NCBI RefSeq assembly: GCF_964355755.1
Contig: NC_092676.1
Location: 563,788 to 627,787 of the forward strand
Length of the DNA stretch: 64,000 bases
Reading direction: 5' to 3'
Origin: Antedon mediterranea
Lineage: Eukaryota; Animalia; Echinodermata
Shown here: positions 13,015 to 56,730 of the stretch, one piece after another
How the letters are laid out: every line of letters starts with the position of its first letter
Numbering within the stretch: position 1 is the first letter of the stretch
The notes under the pieces: generated by a model
Told to the model about the DNA's origin: nothing
Seen by the model: the letters and a program-made list of their open reading frames with translations, nothing else
Database searches by the model: none
Made by a program: the position numbers and the translations under genes

Positions 13015-25469
<12,455 letters not shown>

Positions 25470-32782: not shown

Positions 32783-35700
32783 CTAGTTCCAATCATCATC
32801 CTCCCAGTCTGAACTTGTATTACTATCGTCTTCAGAATCACTAAGTTCAACAGCCAGACGTCTAGCCAAGATAGCTGCTACTGAGTTTGGAGTGCTATCA
32901 GACCCCTGCTTTTTAGCCTGGGTACGATCTACTTCACGCAGCTTTATACCTGAAAAACAATTAGTAAAATGTCATATAGAATCATAACAGGTATAGTACC
33001 AATTTACCAATAACAGGTATAGTACCAATTTACCAATAACAGGTATAGTACCAATTTACCAATAACAGGTATAGTACCAATTTACCAATAACAGGTATAG
33101 TACCAATTTACCAATAACAGGTATAGTACCAATTTACCAATAACAGGTATAGTACCAATTTACCAATAACAGGTATAGTAGTAGTACCAATTTACCAATA
33201 ACAGGTATAGTACCAATTTACCAATAACAGGTATAGTACCAATTTACCAATAACAGGTATAGTACCAATTTACCAATAACAGGTATAGTACCAATTTACC
33301 AATAACAGGTATAGTACCAATTTACCAATAACAGGTATAGTACCAATTTACCAATAACAGGTATAGTACCAATTTACCAATAACAGGTATAGTACCAATT
33401 TACCAATAACAGGTATAGTACCAATTTACCAATAACAGGTATAGTACCAATTTACCAATAACAGGTATAGTACCAATTTACCAATAACAGGTATAGTACC
33501 AATTTACCAATAACAGGTATAGTACCAATTTACCAATAACAGGTATAGTACCAATTTACCAATAACAGGTATAGTACCAATTTACCAATAACAGGTATAG
33601 TACCAATTTACCAATAACAGGTATAGTACCAATTTACCAATAACAGGTATAGTACCAATTTACCAATAACAGGTATAGTACCAATTTACCAATAACAGGT
33701 ATAGTACCAATTTACCAATAACAGGTATAGTACCAATTTACCAATAACAGGTATAGTACCAATTTACCAATAACAGGTATAGTACCAATTTACCAATAAC
33801 AGGTATAGTACCAATTTACCAATAACAGGTATAGTACCAATTTACCAATAACAGGTATAGTACCAATTTACCAATAACAGGTATAGTACCAATTTACCAA
33901 TAACAGGTATAGTACCAATTTACCAATAACAGGTATAGTACCAATTTACCAATAACAGGTATAGTACCAATTTACCAATAACAGGTATAGTACCAATTTA
34001 CCAATAACAGGTATAGTACCAATTTACCAATAACAGGTATAGTACCAATTTACCAATAACAGGTATAGTACCAATTTACCAATAACAGGTATAGTACCAA
34101 TTTACCAATAACAGGTATAGTACCAATTTACCAATAACAGGTATAGTACCAATTTACCAATAACAGGTATAGTACCAATTTACCAATAACAGGTATAGTA
34201 CCAATTTACCAATAACAGGTATAGTACCAATTTACCAATAACAGGTATAGTACCAATTTACCAATAACAGGTATAGTACCAATTTACCAATAACAGGTAT
34301 AGTACCAATTTACCAATAACAGGTATAGTACCAATTTACCAATAACAGGTATAGTACCAATTTACCAATAACAGGTATAGTACCAATTTACCAATAACAG
34401 GTATAGTACCAATTTACCAATAACAGGTATAGTACCAATTTACCAATAACAGGTATAGTACCAATTTACCAATAACAGGTATAGTACCAATTTACCAATA
34501 ACAGGTATAGTACCAATTTACCAATAACAGGTATAGTACCAATTTACCAATAACAGGTATAGTACCAATTTACCAATAACAGGTATAGTACCAATTTACC
34601 AATAACAGGTATAGTACCAATTTACCAATAACAGGTATAGTACCAATTTACCAATAACAGGTATAGTACCAATTTACCAATAACAGGTATAGTACCAATT
34701 TACCAATAACAGGTATAGTACCAATTTACCAATAACAGGTATAGTACCAATTTACCAATAACAGGTATAGTACCAATTTACCAATAACAGGTATAGTACC
34801 AATTTACCAATAACAGGTATAGTACCAATTTACCAATAACAGGTATAGTACCAATTTACCAATAACAGGTATAGTACCAATTTACCAATAACAGGTATAG
34901 TACCAATTTACCAATAACAGGTATAGTACCAATTTACCAATAACAGGTATAGTACCAATTTACCAATAACAGGTATAGTACCAATTTACCAATAACAGGT
35001 ATAGTACCAATTTACCAATAACAGGTATAGTACCAATTTACCAATAACAGGTATAGTACCAATTTACCAATAACAGGTATAGTACCAATTTACCAATAAC
35101 AGGTATAGTACCAATTTACCAATAACAGGTATAGTACCAATTTACCAATAACAGGTATAGTACCAATTTACCAATAACAGGTATAGTACCAATTTACCAA
35201 TAACAGGTATAGTACCAATTTACCAATAACAGGTATAGTACCAATTTACCAATAACAGGTATAGTACCAATTTACCAATAACAGGTATAGTACCAATTTA
35301 CCAATAACAGGTATAGTACCAATTTACCAATAACAGGTATAGTACCAATTTACCAATAACAGGTATAGTACCAATTTACCAATAACAGGTATAGTACCAA
35401 TTTACCAATAACAGGTATAGTACCAATTTGGTTGACTAGGGGTGTCTGAGGGGTTATACTGTAGTTGAGTTTAAGAAGCTTGCTAAATGTTGGTTTGTGT
35501 TTGCTCCATGTTTTCAATAAATGAAAAATCAAAGACTAAATAATAATTTTTTTTTTTTTTTTTTTATTTCAACTTTATTTATAGAGGGTAACCCTTCCAG
35601 CTGAACCCGCAGGCCAGCTGATATTCAGGGGCCCTCTTGAAAATGACAAAATATATAAAACTATACTTAACTAATACGAATCTACTATATACATTTAAAT

Positions 35701-38700
35701 TTAAAACTATTATATAAAAAAATAATTATCCAAAAATAAGTCCTGGAATAAGACTACTGCAGTAACTGAATATATTTACTGTAGTAACTGAATAGAGTTA
35801 TAAAGCATGTTATTTATGTCAACTTCATCACTGCTTACTTGATGCAATAAAGGAAATAAATAAATAATAAATAAATAAAATATGCCAAATAATATTGCAT
35901 ATTTTCAAAATGTACAGTACCTGTTCTGATAGCAGTAAGTAGGTCACTCCTGGGATTTTCCTCTGGTTCCTTCGGTGGTGGTGGAGCTACTCTAGCTGGA
36001 GAAGACGTCATCATCGTCGGCACAGGAGGACCTTGCGGTACAGGAGGTGGAGGAGGTACAAAACCAACATCTGGTGGTGGTGGAGGTGCAGGAATATATG
36101 CAGATGGACCAGTATCATATGGTTCTGGATATCCCTGCATGGGTGGCGGCGGCGCTATTGGAATATGCTGCAGATTGTCATTCTGCTCGTCATAGTCTAT
36201 ATCCTGTCTGTAATCCTGGTCGGTCATCTGTGGTTGGTACGCCGGTGCATCTGGGTATTTAGGCGGTGACGGTACATGTTGTTGTAAATTGTACTCATTC
36301 TGGTATCCAGTATTTATTGGTAGTGCTCCGTTACCCATTGGTTGAGGCGGCGGTGGTGGTGGTGCAGCTGCCGGTCGGTGCGGTGCAGATCTACGTGCTT
36401 CCTGTCTGCTCATTCGGTCCCCTTGGTCTTGGTACGAAATACCGCCTGTGTACTGCGGGTCATCTTCTGGTACATGAAGCTGGTTTTGTGTAGTATTGTT
36501 CTCTTCTGGTGGCGCTCTGTGATGTTCAATCTGGGGTTTTTGGTCTTGCACAAGGTCCGCGCCATCTTTCAACCGCACCCATTGGTCCATCCTTGATTTT
36601 GCTTTTCTTGGCTGATGGGATAATGTTCCCTTTTCTGGTTTCTTATGCTAAAAATTTTTAAGGCAACAACAAAATTGTAAAGTAAAAAAAGTAAAGTATT
36701 GGTCTACAAACTACATTGAAGCAACTTCCATCCTATTGGTTAACATTTATAAAAGACAGACCAAGTCTGATAATTTGGATCACAAATTTTTAAAACTTTC
36801 TGTTATAAAGATTATAAGAACAAGTACAAACTACTTCATACTCCTCCAACAGCGAGTAACTCGCCAATTACACTACAGGATAGATAAACTATTTAATAAT
36901 TTATCGTGCTTATAAACTCAGTCTCATTTGAGGCTTAGGGAGTGGAGTTGAAAGAGTCATGAGTTACAACCCTGCACTAGGTCAGGATTGAACTCGGGAG
37001 CTTGGGATTGGAAGGCAAGCATGTTAACCACCAAACTACAGCTCCACTACTTATTTATTTATTATATGTAACACAACTGGTGTCTAACCTTTCGTCGATG
37101 CCTACGCTCTTGTTTGAGTACAGAAATGTTCTTTTTCTGTTCTTCGCACCATAATTCAAAGAAGTACCTTGGTTTGGTGTAGAATTCTAACCCTTCTTTG
37201 CCATCTTCCCTGTAAGAGAAACATAGTACAACTTCCTATCTTTGTTTTTACAAAAAAACAATGTGATACATTCACTAATGTAAATATATTTTAACTTAAT
37301 TTAATTGTTATCTTCATTGGAAGAAAGAAATACATTATAATTGTAAAATAGATTTTAAGTTGGTGGCCCATTCAGATTTTAAGCATGAGAAAGACTGAAT
37401 TTTGAAGTGCCATAGTATAATTTATTATTTTTATTACATTTTTAGAATGATAATTATGAAAATTTAATGAGCATTGTGGCTTAGAAGTTGAAAAAGTCAT
37501 GGACTACCATTAAACTTATGAGCTGTAAAGTAATAACTAACAATTATCAGTAAGTAAGTAATTATGCAGTCAAATAATCAGCCAACATCAGAGGGTTGGC
37601 AATACTTAACCATTTAATTTTATAATAACCTTTACATACAGGTATTTAAAATTGGGAATTTTTTGTTGTTGTCCACCAATGTTATTTACTGTTAAATGTT
37701 AAATTTGAGTTCGATTTTAAATAAATATCAAATGCTATTAGTTAGATATTTTCTTTATTTATTTAAATTGGGAGTTTTAAAATTTTTCTTTTTATCTGCT
37801 TTAAATGGTCAAGGAAACATTGTCAATTTGTTCATATTTTATCCAAAAAAGGAAGACAATTTCACGGTTTAAATAATGGACCATTTTTGGTATAAAACCA
37901 ATTGTAAAATTCAAATAAATTGGAACCATAAAGACTAATTTCATAATTGTTTATTTTGTAATGTTAATGGAGGCAACATAAATGTTCTTTAACCTTAATA
38001 AATACACAACAATAATGTAATAATAATAATAATATAATAATTCCCAAAAAAACATGAAAAAAAAAATGTAGTTATTAAAAGGAACCATTTTTCTGAACAC
38101 CTTTTAAAGACTTTGTAAACAAGAACAAACAAATGCTGGCATTGTATGTAACAACATGCCAATTGCATTCAAGTGTTGATGATTCTGAGAGTGTGTTCCA
38201 ATTTATAACAATGTCTCTCCCGAGGGCTCTGTACATCAGAGACTACTCATTTTTAAACGTCACCATTCTTGACGTGAATTGATCAAACTACTGCGTCTAT
38301 TAGCATTATCAATCCTTACGTGAATTGATCAAACTACTCCAGCTATTAGCATTATCAATCCTTTATAAATGGGTTTGGATAAAAAATGCATGACTTGACA
38401 TACAAACACACATGGCATACAACATTTTCAAATCTAATTTTTTTTCCAAACAAATACAAATTGAAAACTATATTGTTGAAATTAAAATAACACAGAAACA
38501 AAAGCACAACAAAATATTAGTTTAGTAATTTAAAAAATGATGTTCTGCTTTCTGACCGTAGTACCAGCATCATAGGTATGACATGCCATGTGTGCCAAAA
38601 TGTATCTTTTATGGAAAATATAAGCCTAATTTTTGCTTAGAACATAAGTTTTCTGATGTACAAACCCTAGGAGGCACTGTCATATTCAGGTATAGCTATG

Positions 38701-41700
38701 ACACGCAAAATGTATAAATTGTATACAGTGTCATATTGTAATTTTATACTATTCCATATTTATAACAACTTTTACCTAAACAAATTAAGGATAAGGTGAT
38801 TCTGGACGCAGCTTATACTTCAGTTTACTGAAATATCCAACTTTAACTACAAATTACTGGATACCGATATTTTAAACAGCCTATACTGCTATATGTTCCT
38901 AATGATCTGAAGTGTCAGTAAATGTATTAACTGTGATTTTTTTAGTGCTTTTCTTGTAATTTGTTTTTACTTGATTCATGACAATTTTAATTTGTCATAG
39001 AATAGGTTATAATGACATTGATTGATTTGTGTTTCCTTCACAATTTAGCCCAAAGCTGATGACATTTAAATAAATGGTAAAATTTACAAACCCTTCAAAG
39101 AGAAAATAGAACACAGAATAGGTAAAAATTTAACAGCATTTATCTTTCAAATAAATTTTGCTCAATATGATGTTAAATTTGTACAAATTTATTGTTAAAT
39201 TTTGGCAAATATGGTAATATAAGGGCAAATCATTATTGATTATCAGCCCAATTGAACGAGTTTAATACATACATGATTAACCAGATGATTTACGATGACT
39301 TATGCTAATAATAATAATCCACGACATTATGTTAAATAATATTCAAATTGAAATTCCTTGAGAATTCTAATCGTTTCACAAGGTTAAAATATATTTATTA
39401 AAGTTGAATGACTTATTTTGAATAAAATGCCCTGGGGTAGTTTATTATTCAGTAGGCCATTTATTTGAGGGGGCATAACACTAAAACATATATATATAAT
39501 ATGGTAGAACAGCTATTAAGGGGACACCTTTGGGTCCCAACAAAGCATTCCCTTAATAGAAGTGTCCTATATTTGTTGCCCTTGTTCATGTCATGGAAAA
39601 TTGTGCCCTTTGAGTAGTGTCCCACAGGAGACGTTCAACCGTACTCTAATAAACTTACCACTAAACCCAACATGGAAGCAAATGAATACATTACCTGTAT
39701 GGCGTAAGAATGTGTAAGAGTGGAGGTGGTTCGCACTTAACCGTGTAAGTGTCGTGAACGGCGGTCGGACGCTTCTCTTTCGATAACATTTCTTGGTCTA
39801 AAATCACTTTACTTTGAAACGGAGCATATGCCAGTATATCTTGTAAGGACACTAAACAACATTGACAACATTAAAGACAACATACAACATAGTAAATCAA
39901 AGATAATGTAACAACATTAACATACATCTCTTCCAATCAAAACTGTATAGAATTACAAGGTATAATTAAATAATTAAAGAAAAACAGTATTAATATGCAA
40001 AGAAGCGAATTAAAAAAATTATAAATTATGGTAGTATATTTTAAGCTGACCATATTTTAGTTTGTTTTTAAATTGTTTGTGTTTAATGTGTCACTGTCTG
40101 TACTATGATTGTGATAACATGACCATGATAATAATAAATCTGATATTTATTTAATGACCAATACAAAATACTGAAAAGTTTCTTTTGGGTCAATATAATG
40201 CAAAACTGTCACTGGACTTTGAACGTGGATATCAATCACTATACTTTCTTATCATGATTAAAGTCAATTCCTTAATACTATTAAATAATAATAGTAGTAA
40301 TGCTTAACTAATGTATAATTCCACACTAGGGGCAAACTGTTTTGGTATTATTATGTATCTGTAATAGTATGTCCAATAACGTTGTTCCTTTTTCAGTGAT
40401 TATCCTCTTTTATTTATCGAAAGTGTTAGGTCAAAACATGTTTACTCTATGAATGAGTACTGTATAACCTTTGGGGGTCTGGGTACAACATTTGGTAACA
40501 ATTGGGGGGGGGGGGGGAGGTGATAAAACTGGTATAATCAAATTTCATTAGTTACAATGGAATTGTCTTGTGTTCCTGTACAACGTTTTGTAAAAATTTG
40601 AGGGTGTGATTACCGGTATAATCAGATTTCATTTAAACAATGGAATTGTCTTGTGATCCGGTTTTAGCATAGATTATTGGGTGGTATTATACTTGAGCAT
40701 AGGATTTAACTTGGTCACAGCATTTAAACATTGAAGTCATGATCTCTTATCATTGTTATAATGCACAATCATTTAATATTCTACTAATGTCTTTAAAATA
40801 TACTGTACTCATGCGGATGTTACATTATAACATGTACAGTAGGTTGTTGAGTAAATGCAGAATGTAGATCTGATTTCAGTTTATTCTACTTAGAGAAACA
40901 CCTTAAATATTGTAAATTATTTTAATCATTGCTTTTTTTTTGCCAATTGCTATGTGGGTGGATTCAAATATTGCAGTAATAAAACTTAACACTGATTATT
41001 CCAAAAGAAAACAGACATTTATATAAATTAAATGTATAAACGAAACTAATGATGAGGCACGACCTGGATTTAACAGCAATGACGTCAAAGACAACTGTTT
41101 CCCAAACTTGATTGTTGATGCAAAATAACATCAAAATCTTTATTTCCTGTGCAAATGGACTTTTGATTTGTAGACATGATTGATGTGATAAGCCTCTCTT
41201 AGATGTAATCTTATTTGTTCTGATAAGATCTAGTAGGCTTATAGCATCAAGATTTCATCATCATTATACTGTACTTACTGGGAAAAAACTAGAAACATAG
41301 GGCATAGAAATCCAATAATGATTAATACAAAATTGAGAGTCTGCATGGATCAGGAAGATGATGAATACAGTAATGCCTCTATAGATCAAAAAGAGGGGTG
41401 GGGATCAAAAAGAGGGGTGGGGATCAAAAAGACGGGTGGGGATCAAAAAGAGGGGTGCGGATCAAAAAGAGGGGTGCGGATCAAAAAGAGGGGTGCGGAT
41501 CAAAAAGAGGGGTGCGGATCAAAAAGAGGGGTGGGGATCAAAAAGAGGGGTGGGGATCAAAAAGAGGGGTGGGGATCAAGAAGAGGGGTGAGGATCAAAA
41601 AGAGGGGTGCGGATCAAAAAGAGGGGTGCGGATCGAGGTGTATAGTATTTTAGTATTTGTATAGTCATTTTAGGATACCATTTGTTTATCTAGGTAAAGC

Positions 41701-44700
41701 ATACATTTGATGTCTCTATGAATCAGGAGGAGCAAGGGGGAGGGAGGTATATGTATTTGTTCTGTCCTAGACAAAATGCTTGAAAAAAATTATTATCGTA
41801 TTCTTCAGCACAAACTATTACATTAAAATTGCTCAATAATCATTGAATGTGTATTGTATTGAAATAATCCCAACATTTAAAATATACTAAATACACACTT
41901 ATACAACTACTGTACAATGTTTGATCAATACAGGAAGTCAAAGAATAAAATATATAATAATAATATTCTTTTTATAATGTTTATCTAGTAAGTCACAATA
42001 AATATACTCCCTCATTAAATGGTGATCTAGTATTTTATTATGATAAAAAACATTTGTTTGTTTTAGCTGACTACATACAGTGTAGTTTGAAAGATTGTAG
42101 TGGAAATAAAAGTCTAGTTTCTTTTCTCTGTTAAATAAACATACAGGCACTGCACATTATTGCATTTAAATCATGAATAGGAGGCTTGTATTGTAATACG
42201 GTGTGCTTTGAATTTGTGAGAATTTGAAATTATTGATTTGGTCAACCTTACCAGGGCTAACAGCAAACATACATAATTACAACACTAACAATATATTATA
42301 GATTTGAATACATTAAATACAACTGCAGCCAGAGTCAGAATGACTACAAATCAAATTAATGAACAGAGTACCTTGAACCCCAGTACATACGTACATGTTC
42401 ATTTTAGGCTATGGTGTTAATGATTTTAGGCCTGTAATCCAATATCTTCAATTGACCCAATTATTTATGATTATAATGTTACTAATTTAAAATCTTGTAT
42501 GTATCAATGAAGGGGATGCTGATCACCGAGTATAGTCGAAATTCTATTTTTGTGTTCCTAGAAATAATTAGTTCATACTATAATAATAAATAATGCTATA
42601 AATATTATACGTTACAATACATTCATTATTTGTACTAAAATAAAATGTAAATTTGAAAAACGCAATACATCAGTATCTAAATTGCTCAAGTCAAGTCAAG
42701 TCAGGACATTTGCTTAAAGCAAGAGATTTGTATTAGTATTAATATACAAATTGCTTGAGTTAAGCAGATATCATCCCAAGTGTACAAACCAAATTCAATT
42801 TGATCTTTACAGTATTTGGTTTCATAAGGGGGGTTAACATTAATAGCGATACATCTAACTAGGACAACATAAGCTGTGTAGACTTGTACAATGAATAAAT
42901 TACTATCAAAATATAAAATAACATATCACGATTAAAATTATTTTGATTTAAATAAAGAGGATTTACTTCAAACAAACTCAATCAAAAAATCGTATTAGAT
43001 TTCAATCAGAAATTATATATGTATGATTATTAAAGTAATATTGTCAACCATGAATCTATTTTAGCATTTTAAATGTATTATGACTTAAATCATTACTGTT
43101 ATACAGTAGCCTACAACCTGTGTAGTAATGAAAGACTGTAGAAGATTTTATTGTAAATTACCTTTTGGGAAAATTAAATAAATGAAAGAATTTAGAATTA
43201 TCTCCAATTAACATTAAACTTTAATAATTATTACTGCTTTCATTACATTGATATAAACATTAAAATAACATTATTAATGTTCCACATTTAGAATGACATG
43301 ACCTTTAAGTTTAAATTTAAAACTAAGGTTTGTATAAAATTCAGAATATTCTCATAAGATTTTGATAAATTAAACCTAAACCGAAACAATTTATAAAAAC
43401 ACAGACACTGTACTACATATTGTCACTGTTTATTATTTGTATGATACCACATTTTGTTGCCTAAATTATGATTTTTTTTTTTAATGTGTAAAAAACCGAA
43501 CAAAGACAAATATTTTAAATAATAAAATATATTTTATATAAATTCATAAAGGAAGCTAACTGGTAAATAATGATTAATAATGTAATGATGCATTATTACA
43601 AAACACATTAAATAGCTGACAATTTTGATTTATAAAACAGAATCTACTGTCATGATCTAATGCATTGTAATTATAATACTTAGCATCGTTAACATATATT
43701 TTTATCGTTTCTAATAAAACTGAAAATAAGAACTGATTGGAAACTAGGACAATAAAGACCAACGATCTGAGGAGAGGAAAGAGGAGGAGTGATGGGAAAT
43801 GGGCAAAGAGAAGAAGGGGTAGTGGAGAAGATGGAGGGAGAAGGGGTAGAGAGGAGGAGTTGAAGAACAAAATGTTTCAATGTTTCTTTCCTTTATTTCA
43901 ATTCGTAAACAAATTGAAGGTCAACATTTCAGTATAGTCTTATAAGGTTACAGCAAATTACTTAAAAGGGACATATCAACTACGTACGAGAATAAAAAAA
44001 GTCTATAAATATATACTGTAATGCAGTTGTAAATTTAAATACCAATAGTCAAGATGGATACAAATTTAGTATGAACATAGATTTTGGCAGGCAGTATTTC
44101 TTTATAAAGACAGTGGGGATAAGAGTTAAGACTAGAGGTAAGAGACTGTGTACACAGTAATCAAAATTGTATTTATTTGTATGTACTTTATGCAGTACAG
44201 TATAATATGCAAGAGGCTGTGTAACTTATATTTCTATAAATAGATAGTACTCAATTGCAAAAACAGAGAGCATGTTCCAAAATTAATTATAAAAAGAAAG
44301 GCTTGGGAATTTCTATGAATCCGATATTAATCAATTTTAAAAACATGAAATTAATTTCAACTGCTAGCCACAGCTACTGTCACTGATGATTATCAACGTG
44401 ATTGCATGTTTAATAAATGCAACTTACTTTATCGCCAACTTCAAATTTACGACTAACAAGTAGCCCGAGAAAAAAAGAATTTTATTCATGCAAACTGATG
44501 GAAACATAAGATTTTTTTGTAAGGTAATTATGAACATGTTTTACGCATAAATTATGCTTCAAGTCTGGATCGGTAAAGCTAGCTATAAATATAGTTAACA
44601 ATGTTTAAAGAATTTAACCATTTTATGCCTCTATGTTTTACAACTATATCAGTGAATATTCTGTATAATATATTACTGTATAATTAATATGCCTAGAATA

Positions 44701-47700
44701 AACACATACAGTAAGTGTTTAACTGATTCCAGCTACAGTATGTTTAAACTGCTCAGACAATATTCCCGGAGGCACTGATAAAACAAAAAAAATGTGTGCA
44801 GTGTTTAAGAATAGAATGACCTCATTTCGGGTTCCACATAAACATACTGAAGGTGCCAGAACTACAGAGCCCAACAATTCACAGTTCTTTTTAATTTCTC
44901 AAGTTAAACACTCCTCACTTTATTCAAGAAAAACAATAAGAGAGAGGGCACTCTTGCCACGATGAGAGTAACCCAATTTTATGAATATTTTCGTGTCGCT
45001 GTCATTAAATGATGGTGGTTATCTGATTTGGTTACAAGTTAAAGACTTTCAATTTAGAGGTATAATTGACAGATGTTACAAATCTATTATATTACTGTAT
45101 CAATGATCTATTTCTGTATCACAGTCAATGATGGTTTGTTGTTTTCATTTCTACAGCGGTGGTATATTCTACTGTTTATTTTGCCACATAGTTTTGAGTT
45201 TTGCTGATTCTATCTAATGCACTTGCGTAGAACTATTCTCACATCGCCTTACAAAATTCTGGAGTGTAAAATCATTCATCAGTTTTGCTATGCAATGTGA
45301 AAGGGGTAATACAGGTAAAAAACTAAATGACTAACTTTTAGCAAGATAATATACTTGATATTGTTATTGAAATTTTGGGAATAAAAAAAGTATGTATAGA
45401 TGTGTTGATTATATGTTTGTTTGTAAACATGAAATAATGATTTTTGATAACTTGACAAAATGACCACAAAGCAACATATCCGTATGATTACTGCACATGC
45501 CTACAAGCTAATCCGAGTTGTGATAGCTACCAAACTCCATCCAAACCAAGATCATATTGGAATTCAAGCTGTTAACCCACTTGACTGGTTGTACAAAGGT
45601 ACGTGGATGATTGTAATGTTCTGTTGCTTTATAGTCATGGTGTTGCGCAATCAAAAAGGTCTTCTTATTTCTACAGCATGCAAATAGTTTAGTATTGTGA
45701 TGAAGTTATAGATTATAAAACTAAAAAATATAAATGATTGTTTTATTCTAAAGCGTGTTTACTAAGAGCACCATGTTAGGCCAGTGTATAGTGCACCATG
45801 TTAGGCCTTGTGACTAGTCTTTGATTGGTAGAGACGTGTTGTTACACAACCTTTGATTTGCGTCCGTTTTAGACTAAACCATTACCTGTAAGGGGTGAGT
45901 AAGTTCAACTTCGGTGGTTTATCGCATAGCATATATAGCTCCCTCATTGTTGAGGGCATAGTGTGACCCGCAACTACTTGTTGGTCCATGAGCGTGGAGC
46001 TTTTGTAAGCTTTACGCAAATGAATATCTTGTAATAAAACTGAAAAATTGCCAAAAAAAATAAAAATGTATCGTCGACTGCTTATTACCATGGCAGACGA
46101 GACACAGGTTAATTGAAAAAAATAAATGATTAGCATAGTAATCACCCTACATTTGCATATTAATTGCATAATATTTGCATATTAATTGCATATTATTTGC
46201 ATCATTTGCATATTAATTGCACCAATGTCCTTCTCATGATTGAATTTTTTCAGGCCACAAAATTGTATAATTTGATAAAATTGAATTGAGAGCAATGTTT
46301 TGCGATATCAAAAGCTAATTTAACAAGACAGATAACATCACATATCATTCAAGACCTACAGTATATCAGACACTTGTTTCAACATAATTTAAGATTAATA
46401 AAATGTTTTGAAAATTTGCTGGCCAAAATGATTGCTGCGCACGACAAAATAATAGTGTAATGGCCAGTGAAGTTTGCTTTAATAAAGAATATGCAAATGT
46501 AGTGGTGAAACTTTATTATCTTTTCTATCTACAGCTGTGAATAAAAGCAAAATATAAACTATAAATGCTTTCAAGAAGTGTTTGTCTAGAACTGTATTTG
46601 ACTGGAATTACAAAATTCAAGACAAGCACTCTTGTATGCCAAATAATTATCTTTAAATTAAAAAATGTGCATTATTTAGTATAAAATAAGAAGAAGTAAT
46701 AAATGTGCGAATGACAGATTTTTATGATTAATTATTATATGTGCTAGATTAATACACCTTAATATTATTTAAATAAAAATAATATGAATTTGCATATTGT
46801 CTATAAATCAACATAATAATTTGAATAATTAACTACAAATTAGCTTTGCTATTATGTTGGTACAGTACTGCTTTCCTAGACTTGAATCCAAACCATTAGC
46901 TTAGTGGTCTAGAGTAAAACATCTCACCAATTATAATAAATCTTTATTTTTTTTTCTATTCATTATTAGCTAAAGCTCTGTCTACACTATCAAACTTTAT
47001 GCAACAAAAAATTGTGATGTGCCCATATGGACAAGATGATGTCATATCTCTACCATATTTGGGCACATCACACTACTTTGATAGTGTACACAAAGCTTTA
47101 TAGCCACAAAGAAATAATCTTCTTAAACATTTTTAGTCTTATTGAATTTGAACAAAAAATTTAAACTTTTGCAAATGACTATTTACTAAGCAAAGCAAAT
47201 ATTGCCATACAGTAGAATATGTCTGTGGTGTAGTGTCACCAACACCTTATCAGAAGGGACCAATTCCTTGCTACTCAGTGAGTTTAAATTATTCCTGTAA
47301 TGTTCTGTGATGCTGTAGGAAGTATAGCGTTTATTTTGTAATGACACGGTTTAAAAATCACCCAATTACATATTAAATAGTAATATAAAACCAAACAAAA
47401 TTTTATAAAAACATCTTGTTTTGAATTTTACAAACATTTTTGTTTCAGTGTTTTGTTTTTTTGTTGTGTTTTCCAGAAAGATTATAATTGAAACTTCTTT
47501 CTAATTTTATCAAGCGTAAAATAAATAAATAATTTAAATTGTTCATTGCACTATACCTGGATCCTGTGTTGCATCTAACTTGGTTACCTTCACCGACAGT
47601 TTATCTATCCTGTCTTGAAGAACATTGGCTCGGACAAAAACCGAGTTAGCCTCTTGATAGAGGTCGCCAAATATATCCTCGGCATGTTTACTAAGGTTAC

Positions 47701-47824
47701 TTAGTTGGCGTATAACACCAGCTAATGTACTGTTAGTCACACATTCAAGTTCGTTCCTAATTCCTTTGTCGATTGTGCCTCGACTAAGGTGTACTGGCTC
47801 TACGTGTCGTTTTATAAGCGGCAT
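32783..47824 (-). CDS. WASF: WAVE/SCAR (WASF family), 478/479 aa. Exons 47824-47557, [46039-45886 or 39851-39695], 37209-37089, 36647-35921, 32949-32783
   Basis: WHD start MPLIKRHVEPVHLSR..NELECVTNSTL..RQLSNLSKHAEDIFG, then EDGKEGLEFYT..YFFELW, a basic region, polyproline, WH2 (RSDLLTAIRTGIKLREV), C region (VAAILARRLAVE) and acidic tail DWEDDDWN*. All phases are consistent. Confidence 0.95.
32985..35427. repeat. 26-bp minisatellite (taacaggtatagtaccaatttaccaa), about 94 almost identical copies, in the last WASF intron
   Basis: Direct tandem units. The only visible variant is a 6-nt insertion near 33180. Confidence 0.98.
35547..35640 (-). mobile_element. 3' end of a retroposon (stem-loop followed by a poly-A tail)
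   Basis: Poly-T run on the + strand followed by the hairpin gagggtaaccct..cagctg...cagctg..aggggccctc. Confidence 0.45.
36850..37050 (-). mobile_element. tRNA-Gly(TCC)-derived SINE; tRNA-like head at 36973-37045
   Basis: Minus strand ggagctgtagtttggtggttaacatgcttgccTTCCAAtcccaagctcccGAGTTCAATCCtgacctagtgca shows A box, TCC anticodon loop and B box, with decayed stems. The 3' boundary is approximate. Confidence 0.7.
39695..39851 (-). CDS. WASF: WASF meander exon variant B (157 nt; VSLQDILAYAPFQSKVILDQEMLSKEKRPTAVHDTYTVKCEPPPLLHILTPYR), missed by the ORF track
   Basis: gttgtttag acceptor, AG|gtaatg donor, same phases as A, no stops. Conserves LQDI, DQ, P, Y, C-x-x-P-P and LTPYR. Confidence 0.88.
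39892..39944 (-). promoter_or_regulatory. Candidate splicing RNA-pairing arm Y, about 40 nt upstream of WASF exon B
   Basis: RNA AGUUUUGAUUGGAAGAGAUGUAUGUUAAUGUUGUUACAUUAUCUUUGAUUUAC pairs with arm X in three helices, with an 8-nt bulge. Confidence 0.65.
41384..41635. repeat. 19-bp G-rich minisatellite (ggatcaaaaagaggggtgc/g), about 13 copies
   Basis: Direct tandem units in the intron between WASF exons A and B. Confidence 0.95.
45816..45861 (-). promoter_or_regulatory. Candidate splicing RNA-pairing arm X, 24 nt downstream of the WASF exon A donor
   Basis: RNA GCAAAUCAAAGGUUGUGUAACAACACGUCUCUACCAAUCAAAGACU is complementary to arm Y at 39892-39944. Confidence 0.65.
45886..46039 (-). CDS. 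WASF: WASF meander exon variant A (154 nt; VLLQDIHLRKAYKSSTLMDQQVVAGHTMPSTMRELYMLCDKPPKLNLLTPYR)
   Basis: ttttcag acceptor, AG|gtaatg donor, phase 1 in and phase 2 out. Close to the canonical WAVE sequence. Confidence 0.93.
46974..47097. mobile_element. MITE family 2 copy
   Basis: TAA|AGCTCTGTCTACACTATCAAA ... TTTGATAGTGTACACAAAGCT|TTA. Confidence 0.85.
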
Positions 47825-48827
47825 TTCAATAACAATTTAATTCACATCTGAAAAAAAAAAAAAAAATCAGTTACAATTCTATTTCAATTCTAAATTTTCT
47901 GGTTGCAGTTTTCCCTCCAATAAGCAGTACATCAGTGTGTAAGTCGTGCTTAAATAAAGACTTAAATTTAAAGTAAATCCTTTCATTGAGCCTAAAACAT
48001 GCACCATGTGATACTGATCATTTTTGTCCCGTTTTCTAACAAGAAAATGGCGATAAAATAAAAAACAGGCACATGCGCTTGGAGATGGTGTTAAAGTGAA
48101 TTTACAAATACAAATCTAATCTCAGAAATACCAAAAGAAATAGTTTTTTTCTACTAAACCATTGGCCTTCATCTATTAGAACCACTTCAAATATAGTGAC
48201 AGGGACCAGCTAATACTAGATTAACACCATTTTACTTCATAAACCAGGAAGTATAATATTGACACAATCACTATTCAATCCATCAAATTTATGATTGATT
48301 CTACAATAGAATCAATCGTTTATTTAAGTTCAGTCAATGGAACAAGCATCACATGCAGCAATTGTTGTTGGCTATGCTAAATGCCGCTATGCTGTTATGC
48401 TGCTATGCCGTTATGCCGCTTCATTCACATTACATTTTATGGCCTGTTCCTATTGAAAAATCTTGAGAAACAGTTTTCCCCAAAACAGGAATTGGTAGTT
48501 TATACTGTAGATAAATTTTGATGCTGTTTTCAGTACAAGTTGATCTTAACAATCCGAGAACAGTTTTTGAAATCTTGAAAAAAGTAACAAAATTTAATTT
48601 TCACTATATTAGATTTTTGAATAAATAAATTATGAAATGATTTAAGCCATTTATTGGAGCAGAACATGAACTGATCATAAATGAGCCAACCACCTTGAAT
48701 ACAGTCTACAGTACAGAAAAAAATGACTGCAACTTTTCCTATGAGCTGGCGTCTGTAATATGACAATTATTGCAATGTTACTGGTGGTAGCACCTTTGAT
48801 ACGAGATTCACTAAAATGACTTTTGTA

Positions 48828-49280
48828 CTATTTAACATGGGTATAACACTTGTTGGTCTATTTAACATGGGTATAACACTTGTTGGTCTATTTAACATGG
48901 GTATAACACTTGTTGGTCTATTTAACATGGGTATAACACTTGTTGGTCTATTTAACATGGGTATAACACTTGTTGGTCTATTTAACATGGGTATAACACT
49001 TGTTGGTCTATTTAACATGGGTATAACACTTGTTGGTCTATTTAACATGGGTATAACACTTGTTGGTCTATTTAACATGGGTATAACACTTGTTGGTCTA
49101 TTTAACATGGGTATAACACTTGTTGGTCTATTTAACATGGGTATAACACTTGTTGGTCTATTTAACATGGGTATAACACTTGTTGGTCTATTTAACATGG
49201 GTATAACACTTGTTGGTCTATTTAACATGGGTATAACACTTGTTGGTCTATTTAACATGGGTATAACACTTGTTGGTCTA
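48828..49280. repeat. 30-bp perfect minisatellite (ctatttaacatgggtataacacttgttggt), 15 copies
   Basis: Direct tandem units. They explain the MLNRPTSVIP ORFs. Confidence 0.98.
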
Positions 49281-50521: not shown

Positions 50522-50846
50522 AGTTCTGTCTACACACTATCAAACTAGTTTGACAAAAAAAGTGATATGCTCAAATACAACAGGAAGTCAAGAAGTCAAG
50601 AAGATAATTTTATCTTGTAATTTTTTAGATGTTTTTATATGAATGGTTTTATGCTATATTTGTATTTATTGTGTTTTCTTTGTTCTTTTGACGAGCAATG
50701 AATTTCCTTTTTGAGGATCAATAAAAGTTATCTTATCTTATCTTATCTTATATTATATGGTAGTGATACTGTATGACATCATCATGTCTATATATGTGCA
50801 CATTACATTTTTTTGTCACATAAAGTTTGATAGTGTATACAGTGCT
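50522..50846. mobile_element. MITE family 2 copy interrupted by a 5'-truncated retroposon tail (about 50578-50753)
   Basis: The MITE halves flank a segment ending ggatcaataaaag(ttatc)n. Confidence 0.75.
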
Positions 50847-51852
50847 TAATTATCATCATCCTACTGTACAGAATCTGTATCATAACTTCTTAAATCCTAT
50901 TTTCTGGGAGATATCCTAAACAATTTAGATTCAAACATATGCAGGAACTCACTTATCATTGAGGAAATCATTGCACATTTTGTTGACTTGATTGATCTGA
51001 TTTTCAATATTTTCGCTGATGACTCTGAGCGAGCCAGATAGAAGTGTTCATTTTATACATCAATGATTTATCTAATTATATTATTATTACATTATGTTAA
51101 TGATTCAGGGTTCACCAACTTGTTATTAGCGCAAATGATCAACCTGAAGAACTATTAATACAGTAGAATATGACAATCTGTGTCTAAAAAAAAAACATAA
51201 AAATTGAGATTAATACAATCACACTTTTAATAGGCCATTTTACAGTTATTCACAGATTACAACATGTTGCAATGTAAATATTGATTCAATATAAATATCC
51301 ACAGTAACTGAGTAACTATATATAAAGCTGTTAGTGCCAGTCTTTAGAGCGCTATCACAGCAATAAAAAGGTGAGTTCAGAAACGCCAGACAAACGTGAT
51401 GAGGTAACAAATTTCAAAAACAGAGCTTTGACAAAAAATAACAAGATTGCCAAAAGCTTATTACATAATTGAATTTAATATTTTGAATACTTCTGTAGCT
51501 TTTACACTTACTTGACCAGACTACAAACTACATTATCTGAATAATTTGGTCCATGTGGAAATACTATCAACTAAATGAAATAGTTAAGCTGACATACTTG
51601 TGAAGCCTACTTGCAGTGCCATTGGGGAATCTAGTAAGGCTCCACCTTCAGCTTCTACAGGATATAAGGCCTGACTTCATTTCCTTTACTACTTCTGGCT
51701 CAGTTTATAAACAACAATAAGGAATCAAGGATATAATTGTTTGAACTGCTCTTGTTTTTCAACTATTAGAACTTTTACTTCTCATTTTTATTTCATAAAA
51801 GGCATGGGATTCGGGAACTGGGGGGGGGGGGGGGGTGACTCTAAAATATAAA

Positions 51853-52640
51853 TTTATTTTATTTATTTATTTCCCAACCAACAGTGAGCTCATGTTTCAC
51901 CACTTACAGGAGGGAACACAGACAAACACGAACATATACAATAAAAAACATTAAACTAAACTACTAACAATGTCACGAAACTTACGGAAATTATTACTAA
52001 AGATATCTAACTCAGGGTTTCTTAAAGTAAAAGAATTATAAGTTTGACTTAATCTACTACTAAAACCATTTTTTAAAACATTTACTCTACTAAAAGGAAT
52101 ATGAAAAGTAGTATTTCTTCTAAGACGACGACTAGGGACTCTAAGGTAAAAATTACTAACTAAGTTACAGTCAAATAAAGAATTAATACATTTATACAAA
52201 AAAACAAGATCAAAAAAGGTTCTACGGGACTCAGGAGATCGGACATGGAAATGAAAGTCAGGATTCTGGTTGTGGCTGATGTAGCGTAAAAAACGGTTAT
52301 GCAGACGCTGAATGCGCGTAGACTGAGTTTTCGAAAGAGAATAAAAAATAACAGAACTACAGTTGAGAATTGGATGGATAATTGAATAATAAAGGTGGAT
52401 TTTGGTTTACAATTACGCCACATCAGCCCAAGCAGTCTATTGCACTTGCCAACAAGATAATCAATATGAAAAGAAAAACAAAGGGAACTATCAATAAAAA
52501 CACAAAGATCTTTTTGCGATTGCACCCTATTAATGGGATTGTCATTAATTAAATAATTATACAATAAAATGTTCTTTTTCAAAGTAATAGTAAATATATT
52601 ACACTTAACTGGATTGAGGGACATACCCCATAAATCATGC
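51853..52640 (-). mobile_element. 5'-truncated CR1-clade LINE (C-terminal ORF2 plus (aataa)n tail)
   Basis: WGMSLNPVKC, RVQSQKDLCVFIDSSLCFSFHID and KCNRLLGLMWRN motifs with frameshifts, and an aataaataa tail at 51853-51872. Confidence 0.85.
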
Positions 52641-53904
52641 AAAGTAAACAATTAGTTTTGCCGAAACATCATATTTTGACTTCCACCCCAGAAATTGGTC
52701 TTATATGGCCTCTATTTATACAAGTATGGTTATTTAAATTCAAATCTTTTGTACACTATACGGACTCTTTTTATTTATTGTTGTGTAGGCTTTTCAAAAC
52801 AAACATGATGAATGAGTTTTATGGTATTGTTATAACCTTTATAATATTGAACTAGTGAAATACATACAATTTATTTGGAAGTTGCACTCTAAAAAGGGAT
52901 GTCTAGTGGAGGAAGGCGTGTCTGACTTAACATACAGTACAACTCTTAATATTCATTATACACACAAAAAGTACAAATTGAAATACTCATGTTAGATTTG
53001 TGTTAGTTTAAAAATAAAAAATTAATATATATATCATTGTTTTATAATACTTGCTTTATAATAAAATAATGTTGAGGTGGTTTGAAGCTTACAGCTTACA
53101 TGACCCTTCTCTCTCTCACTTAATGTAAACAAACTAAGCCATGCTTTCAACAAGATGCAAATGTGGCATACTAGTGAGTAACTTATGTAAAGGTAACACA
53201 GGCTGTTCCATAAGTTAATCACTCAAAATTTAAAAACAACATTGCAGAATATAGCTTTTATTGAAGCGAGATGGAAGTTCAACAGATTACTATAGTTTGG
53301 ATTTAAGGTCACACGTCTTTGTTTGTATCAAAGCTATTGTTAACTCAAGTCCAACAGAAGACATCAAGGTTATAATACACAATAAAAAGCAACAACAATG
53401 TTTGTTTAAAATCAAAACTGACAGTGAAAAAATGTTGATTTATTTTGTAGACAGTCAAATTTTGAAATCAAAACTGATGACAGTGAAAAAATGTTGCTTT
53501 ATTTTTATATTCACATTATTTTGCTCCATATTTTAACGATAGCTAAGTTGATTGGAAAAGGAGGCCTTATTTGTAGCCAAGAGTCTACCCAAGGTTTGAT
53601 AGAAATAGTAAATTTAGGAAATGAGAACTTTGTTATCCAGCAATACTGCTGTGGATGATAAACATGGGGGATGGGGATCAGGTGTAAATTAAAGATGCCT
53701 TTAAAAACTGCATCCAATCATGCATGGTCCTGATCATCTGTTGATGCTGAGATTAATTAATATTAATAGATATAGGCCTAGGCCCTATTCTATAATAATA
53801 CATTCAATTTATTATAACATTTTATATTTAGGCTATATTCATTTATTATAGGCTAGGCCTCTAGGCGCATAATAAATAAATTAAGCCTTGGCCTAGGTAA
53901 TTAA

Positions 53905-55675: not shown

Positions 55676-56620
55676 TTAAACTGTTGATGTACCAAGTTTT
55701 TCTTTCACTTTATCGTCAATGTTTGTGTAATATTTTAGTTTTGCTAGGACGTCTCTCGCTTCTTTCAACTGGTCATTCTTAAATAGCTCTGCAAGTTGTA
55801 TCATTAACTCTTTAATATTCAATTCATTTTCTTCACCAATTTTCTTTACAATTTCTAGGTTGGTTGTATCGGACAACTCTTCATTTAACTCCATCATATC
55901 CATAAGAAATACTTTATCGACCATTGAGTCGCCTTCTTCGATTGGGTGGCCTAGAAGTTCCAATAGATACAATCCTCTATTTAAAGGTTTTAATAATGTT
56001 GAATATGCTTTGTTGACAGCAGAGGACTGCCCAGCTGAGAATTCTTGTTCCTTAGGAGACTTCTGACTGAACTTATCTGGATGAAGTAAGCGTTGAAAAT
56101 TTCGGAATGTTTGAGTAAGTTCTTTTGTGTCAATGTCAAATGATTTTAGTAAACTCATTCTTTGAAAATAGTCAATATTTTCTTGACATGGTTGAATCAT
56201 TTTGCAAGATTCACAAAAAAAATTTACGCCAATCTCAGGATGTGAATTTGAAGCTAAACAATTCCAACATATTGATGAAGTATGGCAAAAACGAATTGGA
56301 CTGCATGTATCGTATCCAACGAGATGCTTAGGCCCAATAACCTTACACATACCACTCCCAAAACGAGCGGACGATATGGCCTTAGTTGCAACATGATCGC
56401 CAGTCTTCAGAAAAATTTCTGGGCCTGGCGAACCGTCCAACATTCTAACACGATATTTATAGTTACATAAGCTTGAAAAAGCCCTAAAATTACATATCTT
56501 ATTTACTTCAATAATATGTACATTACTTGGTTTTGGTAATATACATTTAAACTTCACAAAACACTGCCGTAACACAAATTTAGAACTTTGGATTCGAAAC
56601 ATTACCATGGGCGCTGCCAT
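55676..56620 (-). CDS. HSCB: Mitochondrial Fe-S cluster co-chaperone HscB/HSC20, single exon, 314 aa
   Basis: CWNC...FFCESC metal site, DYF, J-domain LHPDKF, AYSTLLKPLNRGLYLL, FLMDMMELNE and KLKYY. Kozak context aaaATGG at 56620. Confidence 0.95.
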   Translation of the reverse strand: MAAPMVMFRIQSSKFVLRQCFVKFKCILPKPSNVHIIEVNKICNFRAFSSLCNYKYRVRMLDGSPGPEIFLKTGDHVATKAISSARFGSGMCKVIGPKHLVGYDTCSPIRFCHTSSICWNCLASNSHPEIGVNFFCESCKMIQPCQENIDYFQRMSLLKSFDIDTKELTQTFRNFQRLLHPDKFSQKSPKEQEFSAGQSSAVNKAYSTLLKPLNRGLYLLELLGHPIEEGDSMVDKVFLMDMMELNEELSDTTNLEIVKKIGEENELNIKELMIQLAELFKNDQLKEARDVLAKLKYYTNIDDKVKEKLGTSTV

Positions 56621-56730
56621 TTTGTTTATTTGCAATTATAGAGGGCGCCAAAGGTAAACAAACTTTACGGCGTGTTACGTTATCGGAAATAAGTTCATAA
56701 CAAAAATAAGAACTAATTTATTTGCTAATT
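56621..56730. promoter_or_regulatory. 110-bp spacer between the HSCB and CLYBL start codons; bidirectional promoter
   Basis: Divergent ATGs at 56620 and 56731. Contains tagagggcgc and an ETS-like cggaaat. Confidence 0.7.

What the first reader, a model, noticed from the sequence alone, without database searches (positions are those of the whole stretch)
39892..45861. Long-range RNA duplex joining the WAVE exon A donor to the exon B acceptor
Seen: 45861-45816, starting 24 nt after donor A, is an inverted complement of 39944-39892, ending about 40 nt before exon B. There are three helices: g(c/t)aaatcaaag, tgtaacaaca and c(g/a)tctct(a/t)ccaatcaaa. Three of the four transition differences form G-U wobbles on the transcribed strand. 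I did not notice either arm elsewhere in the window. Inference: pairing collapses a 6-kb intron to about 64 effective nt, leaving about 40-45 nt between donor A and the likely CUUUAAU branch point. That is below the roughly 50-nt steric limit known to block splicing between mutually exclusive exons, and it may also mask exon B. The UGUUGU-rich tract at acceptor B resembles a CELF/Bruno site that could act as the switch.
Basis: partly seen in the sequence, partly recalled or inferred. Interest (0 to 1): 0.88.

Follow-up and report, generated by a model that had tools for sequence, protein, structure and literature searches.

The report
RNA clamp on feather-star WAVE exons
In a feather star, the gene for the actin regulator WAVE uses one or the other of two duplicated exons, and the two ends of the 6-kb intron between them are complementary and conserved, so they are predicted to zip into an RNA helix that, with a second predicted helix just past the second exon, likely steers which exon is used.

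Summary
Observation confirmed. The gene is Antedon mediterranea WAVE. Exons A and B are duplicates; each alone yields a RefSeq isoform exactly, both or neither yield early stops. Contig breakpoints in two runs fit A and B forms. The arms give 41 bp, -46 kcal/mol; 1 of 1000 shuffles reaches the intron-end energy. They are single-copy and conserved: arm 1 is unchanged in a close relative, arm 2 is recognisable in a third crinoid. No compensatory change was seen. New here: a second helix (-26.5; 1 of 191 shuffles) joins the sequence just after arm 1 to the intron just after exon B, so B is clamped on both sides. The steric block is unproven: the linker is 44-48 nt, between the 42 nt modelled as compatible with yeast zipper stems and the ~50-nt limit. 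Ratio control, as in ATE1 and FGFR2, is more likely, with frameshift decay removing double inclusion. Sea stars also have two versions of this exon, which encodes part of WAVE's autoinhibitory meander. The scan noted the same architecture in octopus CaMKII.

The parts
47557..47824 (-). First coding exon of WAVE (upstream common exon)
   Evidence: 100% identical to Antedon mediterranea WASF3-like P0002; GT-AG borders
45886..46039 (-). Exon A, 154 nt, canonical version (human WAVE1 residues about 90-141)
   Evidence: A form equals P0002; ex1-A and A-ex3 junction contigs in runs X5 and X9, A-ex3-ex4 in X10
45816..45861 (-). Arm 1, starting 24 nt after donor A
   Evidence: 41-bp duplex with arm 2; no change listed in organism B
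45791..45814 (-). Box S1: predicted partner of box D; its first bases overlap the 6-bp extension of arm 1
   Evidence: -26.5 kcal/mol with D; no change listed in organism B
45767..45787 (-). Box S2: tandem copy of S1 (15 nt identical), second predicted partner of D
   Evidence: -25.3 kcal/mol; one substitution at 45779 in organism B breaks a C-G pair
39955..39960 (-). 6-bp extension helix partner
   Evidence: the two deletions of organism B (39948, 6 nt; 39962, 8 nt) fall on either side of it, and the refolded duplex goes from -53.0 to -55.1
39892..39944 (-). Arm 2, ending 40 nt before exon B; covers a cryptic AG at -93
   Evidence: no indel in organism B; recognisable in the intron-read residues of P0001
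39852..39891 (-). Unpaired 40 nt: branch candidate (A at 39871), UGUUGU-rich tract, acceptor B
   Evidence: Motif scan; branch use and protein binding untested
39695..39851 (-). Exon B, 157 nt, divergent duplicate (37% aa identity to A)
   Evidence: B form equals P0122; identity; contig of run X5 covers exactly this exon
39657..39681 (-). Box D, +14 to +38 after donor B
   Evidence: Best partner of S1 and of S2 among 6397 minus-strand windows; conservation not seen
37089..37209 (-). Downstream common exon (ex3)
   Evidence: Junction contigs
46101..46125 (-). Weak possible second partner of arm 2, upstream of exon A (lead only)
   Evidence: -18.7 kcal/mol, reached by 9 of 191 shuffles

Best explanation
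Exons A and B of crinoid WAVE are either-or duplicates, and the conserved complementary ends of the intron between them are predicted to form a long-range RNA helix that likely sets the A/B ratio by bringing B's acceptor next to exon A, while a second predicted helix would loop B out and frameshift decay would remove transcripts carrying both. Shown: exon pair, both isoforms, frameshift of A+B, complementarity, single copy, conservation of arm 1, arm 2 and S1. Inferred: (1) arm1:arm2 forms once arm 2 is transcribed and cuts the path from the upstream donor to acceptor B from about 7.7 kb to about 1.7 kb, close to the 1.5 kb to acceptor A, so the late exon can compete; it also places the UGUUGU tract beside donor A. 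(2) S1/S2:D crosses the first helix (order arm 1, S, arm 2, D), encloses exon B in a 210-nt loop and ties donor A to intron 3, favouring A. (3) Crowding of donor A and branch B (44-48 nt) may add to exclusivity but need not cause it. (4) The protein outcome is a swap of the meander segment that holds the WAVE complex inactive.
For: Isoform identity and frameshift. RefSeq A and B isoforms in Antedon, Anneissia, Acanthaster and Asterias amurensis. Contig lengths 54, 56, 158, 187 (X5) and 208 (X9) equal those simulated for A-form plus B-form transcripts. Duplex beyond shuffles. In organism B, 0 listed changes in 45791-45885 against 27 in 395 flanking intron nt, P=0.0012, or 0.038 if both unlisted substitutions lay there. 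Arm 2 in P0001: 32.8 bits against at most 18.6 in 150 random pieces, helices kept and bulge length changed. Second helix: 1 of 191 shuffles. Precedent: single non-competing duplexes changed the ratio and not exclusivity in ATE1 R2R5 and SCN9A; srp Us-Dd pairing activates the first exon by approximation.
Against: No structure probing, mutation or branch-point map. No two-sided compensatory change: arm 1 did not vary and arm 2 substitutions of organism B were not displayed (13 in 39617-40077). In P0001, three inner changes keep pairing with Antedon arm 1 (two A-to-G opposite U, one U-to-C opposite G), but all are transitions, and two changes at helix ends would break pairs (read by eye). D is not shown conserved, S2 is damaged in organism B, and D has one stronger partner elsewhere in the window (-27.3 at 21960). 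No strong competing structure that loops out A was found among 6601 window pairs. One of 12 RPL28-type results in the yeast paper shows a zipper stem that reduces splicing, so direction cannot be read from geometry.
Confidence: 0.5

Rival explanations
1. Structure-induced steric block: the helix holds donor A and branch B too close for U1 and U2 to act together, so A cannot be joined to B and whichever site is bound first wins.
For: Linker 44-48 nt is under the ~50-nt linear limit. The arms sit at the extreme ends of a 6-kb intron. Spacing from the last helix to exon B is similar in P0001 (49 nt against 44 from the same motif). A weak extension toward the branch region is possible.
Against: Stems with 42 nt or more of linker, 10 or more from the donor and 20 or more from the branch, were modelled as compatible with the yeast A complex; this one has 24 + 20. 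Branch point unmapped; the -20 motif is not clearly kept in P0001. Frameshift decay makes a block unnecessary, though decay was not the main factor in SCN genes.
Confidence: 0.27
2. Repression of B by masking: arm 2 holds upstream branch candidates (-42, -46, -86) and a cryptic AG (-93); pairing hides them and weakens B or prevents a poison acceptor.
For: Motifs lie inside the helix; the cryptic AG follows a pyrimidine tract with branch-like motifs and would add a stop; ATE1 R3R4 works by hiding an acceptor.
Against: The real acceptor, its U/G tract and the -20 candidate are unpaired; B-form contigs are present in run X5 and implied in X9.
Confidence: 0.1
3. The helix is a plain zipper stem that helps A-to-B splicing (a decay-coupled brake on WAVE level), or an ADAR substrate, unrelated to exon choice.
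For: Geometry fits the yeast zipper-stem window; A+B has an early stop 962 nt before the last junction; 41-50 bp with A-C and A-A mismatches could bind ADAR (recalled).
Against: No such pairing in the other introns of the gene; its position between duplicated exons and the second helix point to exon choice.
Confidence: 0.08
4. Chance complementarity or worn terminal repeats of a transposon, without function.
For: Weak as a DNA inverted repeat in unanchored searches; the window is rich in repeats.
Against: Flat single-contig cover over both arms in the whole genome run X6 at 80% likeness, while true repeats nearby drew many contigs; no second copy in the window; no target-site duplication visible; no Pfam hit in 4 of the 6 intron ORFs of 75 aa or more that were scanned; arms more conserved than flanks.
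Confidence: 0.05

Closest known systems
Human ATE1 exons 7a/7b, elements R1-R5 (PMC7797038; passages and section 14)
   Same: Two duplicated either-or exons; one pairing joins the intervening intron to the region upstream of the second exon (R3R4), another joins it to the intron after the second exon (R2R5, ratio control, favours the first exon); pseudoknotted set.
   Different: R4 overlaps the acceptor, arm 2 stops 40 nt short. R3 has two strong competing partners, arm 2 has one strong and one doubtful. R2R5 and R3R4 are nested, here the two helices cross. R5 is 30 kb away, D is 14 nt from the donor.
FGFR2 IAS2-ISAR stem between exons IIIb and IIIc (seen only as a passage in 10.1101/2025.08.16.670673; details recalled)
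   Same: Non-competing intronic pairing controlling an either-or pair whose double inclusion triggers decay; reported conserved from sea urchin to human.
   Different: Recalled: shorter stem, not at the very ends of the intron; acts by bringing protein-binding elements near the IIIb donor.
Drosophila srp exon 4.1/4.2 bidirectional pairing (PMC4691838, passages)
   Same: S:D has the layout of Us-Dd (after exon 1 with after exon 2), which activates the first exon by approximation.
   Different: The matching upstream pairing is weak here (-18.7; 9 of 191 shuffles); the main helix lies wholly inside the intervening intron.
Yeast zipper stems such as RPS17B (PMC12350175, passages)
   Same: A stem linking the donor region to the branch region with a 42-85 nt linker.
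   Different: Constitutive introns of about 400-500 nt, mostly aiding splicing; here 6 kb and between exons that should not be joined.
Steric exclusion in alpha-tropomyosin, OGDH 4a/4b, Dscam exon 17 (PMC7969005 and PMC5740500, passages; Yue 2013 not held, title only)
   Same: Donor-to-branch distance under about 50 nt between two either-or exons.
   Different: There the distance is short in the linear sequence; here only after folding.
Aplysia WASP exons 11A/11B (PMC3298513, passages)
   Same: The one either-or exon pair that survey found in the WASP family; also touches autoinhibition.
   Different: WASP, WH2/C region; that survey reported none for WAVE.

Membership tests
Tandem duplicated mutually exclusive exons | Homologous, similar length, same frame and splice phases | tested here: met
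   154 and 157 nt, 37% aa identity, both fit between ex1 and ex3
Tandem duplicated mutually exclusive exons | Each exon spliced in alone | tested here: met
   RefSeq isoforms matched exactly; contig lengths fit A and B forms
Tandem duplicated mutually exclusive exons | Double inclusion rare even without decay | not testable with these tools
   Only contigs, which drop rare forms; no decay-inhibited data
Functional long-range pre-mRNA duplex | Stability beyond shuffled controls | tested here: met
Functional long-range pre-mRNA duplex | Conserved in relatives | tested here: met
   Arm 1 and S1 in organism B; arm 2 in P0001; each arm seen base by base in a different relative
Functional long-range pre-mRNA duplex | Two-sided compensatory substitutions | tested here: inconclusive
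   No relative with both arms read base by base; only one-sided compatible changes
Functional long-range pre-mRNA duplex | Disruptive and compensatory mutants change and restore splicing | not testable with these tools
   Bench test
Docking-site/selector competing structures (Dscam, ATE1 R1R3/R3R4) | One site with two comparable, mutually exclusive partners, one per exon | tested here: not met
   Arm 2's second partner is -18.7 against -46; S1 and S2 both serve exon A
Steric-hindrance exon pairs (tropomyosin, OGDH) | Linear donor-to-branch distance under about 50 nt | tested here: not met
   About 6.0 kb to the -20 candidate; AGs between exclude a branch near donor A serving acceptor B
Steric-hindrance exon pairs (tropomyosin, OGDH) | Works like it: folded distance too short for assembly | tested here: inconclusive
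   44-48 nt, between 42 and about 50
Decay-enforced exon pairs | Both or neither give a premature stop well before the last junction | tested here: met
   Stops 962 and 825 nt upstream of the last coding junction
DNA transposon with terminal inverted repeats | Multi-copy ends, target-site duplication, transposase | tested here: not met
CELF/Bruno-regulated exon | Protein binding to the UGUU-rich tract | not testable with these tools
   Motif cluster only; motif preference recalled
WAVE/SCAR family | WHD at the N-terminus, WH2-C-A at the C-terminus | tested here: met
   Human WAVE1 chains, E=5e-72, both ends aligned

The most novel reading that the evidence does not exclude
A folded, switchable version of steric exon exclusion: a 41-50 bp helix turns a 6-kb intron into one too short to splice, and a crossing helix locks exon B in a loop, so RNA folding alone decides which autoinhibitory meander an echinoderm WAVE carries, a switch possibly as old as the crinoid/sea-star split.
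Probability: 0.27. Interest if true: 0.8.

Novelty: new member of a known kind. Interest (0 to 1): 0.57.

Why it matters
The one WASP-family survey I read found no alternative exon in WAVE (PMC3298513, passages). Here crinoids and sea stars swap the segment that carries human Y125 and T138 and helps hold the WAVE complex inactive. Both B versions replace the conserved RKAF motif, so the two isoforms may differ in activation threshold. On the RNA side, the helix is about twice as long as the 13-22 bp cases tabulated in PMC6027157, and its linker sits on the boundary between 'stem helps splicing' and 'too close to splice'. That makes it a clean minigene test of whether structure can create a steric block, which my searches did not find demonstrated. 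The two isoforms are already in RefSeq; searches showed no paper on them or on this duplex, within a library that lacks most subscription papers.

Tried and rejected
No whole genome is held, so genome-wide copy number rests on contig cover in run X6 and on the window. No RNA holder was listed on record; X5, X9 and X10 behave as RNA by their spliced contigs. No A-B junction appears in X5's contig pattern (simulated lengths 31, 57, 157, 161 not seen), but contigs drop rare forms and decay would deplete them, so this counts neither way. Contig depths (A 52-55, B 39) are not used as expression levels. X11 gave only repeat pieces and X12 nothing. Two metagenome scans found no related locus. A search for short B-exon proteins found none; the 50%-cluster search gave only P0001 as B-like among 15 hits. 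Rfam: one sub-threshold snoRNA hit (E=0.28) away from the arms. A third exon copy: none in the window. A 12-bp pairing between 46238-46227 and 37395-37384 (-22.4) was set aside as chance-level. The tree cannot tell whether crinoid and sea-star B exons share one origin (p-AU 0.435, 52 columns; P0139, P0142, P0143 and P0145-P0151 except P0150 left out). Yue 2013 (Dscam exon 17) and Baraniak 2003 (FGFR2) were not held. No structure or complex was predicted. No supplements were read.
Full report
Gene and organism. The window carries a WAVE/SCAR gene on the minus strand. Its first coding exon is 100% identical to Antedon mediterranea WASF3-like. Coding exons are 47824-47557, A 46039-45886, B 39851-39695, 37209-37089, 36647-35921 and 32949-32783, all GT-AG. 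The A form translates exactly to XP_071956096.1 (P0002) and the B form to XP_071956094.1 (P0122). A and B are duplicates (37% aa identity), with no third copy in the window. Including both gives a stop after 154 aa, neither after 96 aa, 962 and 825 nt before the last coding junction.

Transcripts. No run was on record as RNA, but laid contigs show splicing. X5 has ex1-A and A-ex3 junction contigs, X9 (organism B) an ex1-A-ex3 contig, X10 an A-ex3-ex4 contig, and X5 a contig covering exactly exon B. The loose ends map to ex1, ex3 and A. A simulated 31-mer graph of A-form and B-form transcripts gives contigs of 54, 56, 158 and 187 nt, as seen in X5, and 208 nt, as seen in X9; an A-only model does not. 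Both isoforms are therefore present in X5 and implied in X9. The word length of 31 is my assumption, borne out by the match. These data cannot measure levels or exclude rare A+B forms.

Wider distribution. RefSeq holds A and B isoforms for Anneissia japonica, Acanthaster planci and Asterias amurensis; the two hemichordate clusters have one member each. Crinoid B exons are 83-85% alike, sea-star B exons 81%, the two groups 27-37%; one origin is neither shown nor rejected. The exon aligns to human WAVE1 residues about 90-141. It keeps Y125 and the T138-P site in both Antedon versions, and B replaces the RKAF motif. A preprint's passages state that the meander binds Sra1 and that Y125 and Y151 phosphorylation releases the VCA (10.64898/2026.10.08.757536); the exact bounds of the meander and the kinase for T138 are recalled.

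The main duplex. One of 1000 shuffles reaches the intron-end energy and six other donor/acceptor combinations are ordinary. Each arm is the other's best sense-strand partner in 64 kb. Unanchored DNA searches do not single it out, so its significance rests on position and RNA pairing.

Not a repeat. In genome run X6 both arms are covered by one contig at flat depth, while an element at 36835-37050 drew the bulk of 4782 laid records. There is no second copy in the window, no Rfam family over the arms and no Pfam hit in the 4 intron ORFs scanned.

Conservation. In organism B, a close relative (2 of 154 nt differ in exon A), 45780-45907 shows no listed change, against 27 changes in 395 flanking intron nt; all gap letters of that contig are accounted for and 2 of its 19 substitutions are unlisted. 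Around exon B its contig has 13 substitutions whose places were not displayed, and three deletions, all outside the helices; two flank the 6-bp extension and slightly strengthen the fold. A protein called on an unnamed contig, P0001 (84% to exon B), reads through the upstream intron. Its residues match arm 2 at 32.8 bits, against 13.5 +/- 2.1 (maximum 18.6) for 150 random pieces and 12.7 and 16.0 for the other two acceptors tested. The helices are kept and the bulge is longer. Three inner changes keep pairing with Antedon arm 1, two at helix ends do not. No two-sided change could be observed.

A second helix. An all-against-all scan of 6601 pairs of 30-nt windows near the splice sites ranked another pairing first: S1 (45814-45791), directly after arm 1, with D (39681-39657), directly after donor B, at -26.5. 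A tandem copy S2 gives -25.3, and D is the best partner of both among 6397 windows, though D itself has one stronger partner outside the gene. One of 191 shuffles reaches it for that pair of regions, 2 of 191 for the best of six pairs. The two helices cross and could form together, enclosing branch, acceptor, exon B and its donor in about 210 nt (inference). S1 is unchanged in organism B, S2 has one pair-breaking change, and D could not be read. A possible upstream partner of arm 2 (46125-46101, -18.7; 9 of 191) is a lead only.

Mechanism. Folding leaves 24-26 nt after donor A and 20-22 nt before the -20 branch candidate. The ~50-nt limit was set on linear introns (PMC7969005 and PMC5740500, passages; 60 nt in PMC13762713). 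For stems, modelling on the yeast A complex accepted 42 nt or more (PMC12350175, passages). The geometry is therefore borderline, and the steric block is a hypothesis (0.27). Where single long-range helices near such exon pairs were mutated, they changed the ratio: ATE1 R2R5, SCN9A ISRE1/2, srp Us-Dd. I favour that role (0.5): the main helix lets the late exon compete and brings the UGUUGU tract beside donor A, the second favours A, and decay removes leaks. Masking (0.1), zipper or editing roles (0.08) and no function (0.05) remain.

Papers seen. Passages: PMC3298513, PMC11802352, PMC6027157 (with its table), PMC8042237, PMC13762713, PMC4691838, PMC5740500, PMC7404189, PMC12962786, PMC12350175, PMC7969005 and the two preprints. 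Passages and section 14: PMC7797038. First of five parts: PMC6071210. Not held, recalled: Yue 2013 and Baraniak 2003. No supplements were read.

Verdict. A real, conserved, probably functional long-range duplex at a real either-or exon pair: a new member of a known kind, in a gene family where the survey I read found no such exon. Interest 0.57; 0.8 if the folded steric block is proven.

Noticed in passing
P0124 and P0005 (Acanthaster, Asterias amurensis); window 39695-39851: Sea stars also have a divergent second version of this WAVE exon, only 27-37% like the crinoid one; their introns were not available.
   Followed up: partly
window 39943-39944 (minus): A cryptic AG 93 nt before exon B follows a pyrimidine tract with branch-like motifs, lies inside the helix and would add an in-frame stop.
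   Followed up: partly
window 39916-39923 (minus): The 8-nt bulge of the duplex holds a branch-like yUnAy motif; the longer bulge of P0001 is compatible with one too.
   Followed up: no
window 45677-45682 and 44487-44492 (minus): Two UGCAUG hexamers (Rbfox motif, recalled); the first is intact in organism B with changes on both sides. Count is near chance.
   Followed up: partly
window 55682-56635 (minus): Intronless HscB co-chaperone ORF (Pfam HSCB_C and DnaJ), head to head with a gene that looks like citrate lyase beta-like (name recalled from ORF text).
   Followed up: partly
window about 33000-35420: Near-perfect tandem array of about 26-nt units, about 2.4 kb, filling most of the last WAVE intron (read).
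   Followed up: no
window 36835-37050: High-copy interspersed element of about 215 nt in WAVE intron 4 (many contigs in runs X5, X6, X11).
   Followed up: no
window 46971-47100 and 50755-50847: Palindromic element with 24-nt inverted ends and a second copy upstream, like a small non-autonomous transposon.
   Followed up: no
window 46129-46221: Short repeats of an ATGCAAAT-like motif 90-180 nt before exon A; one 11-nt unit is missing in organism B.
   Followed up: no
window 41327-41672 and 48823-49280: Tandem arrays of 19 nt (inside the A-B intron) and 30 nt.
   Followed up: no
window 18758-25466 (plus): Exons that look like a malic enzyme gene (name recalled from ORF text).
   Followed up: no
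window 51954-52651 (minus): Two overlapping ORFs resembling a decayed LINE 3' end (recalled); no Pfam hit.
   Followed up: partly
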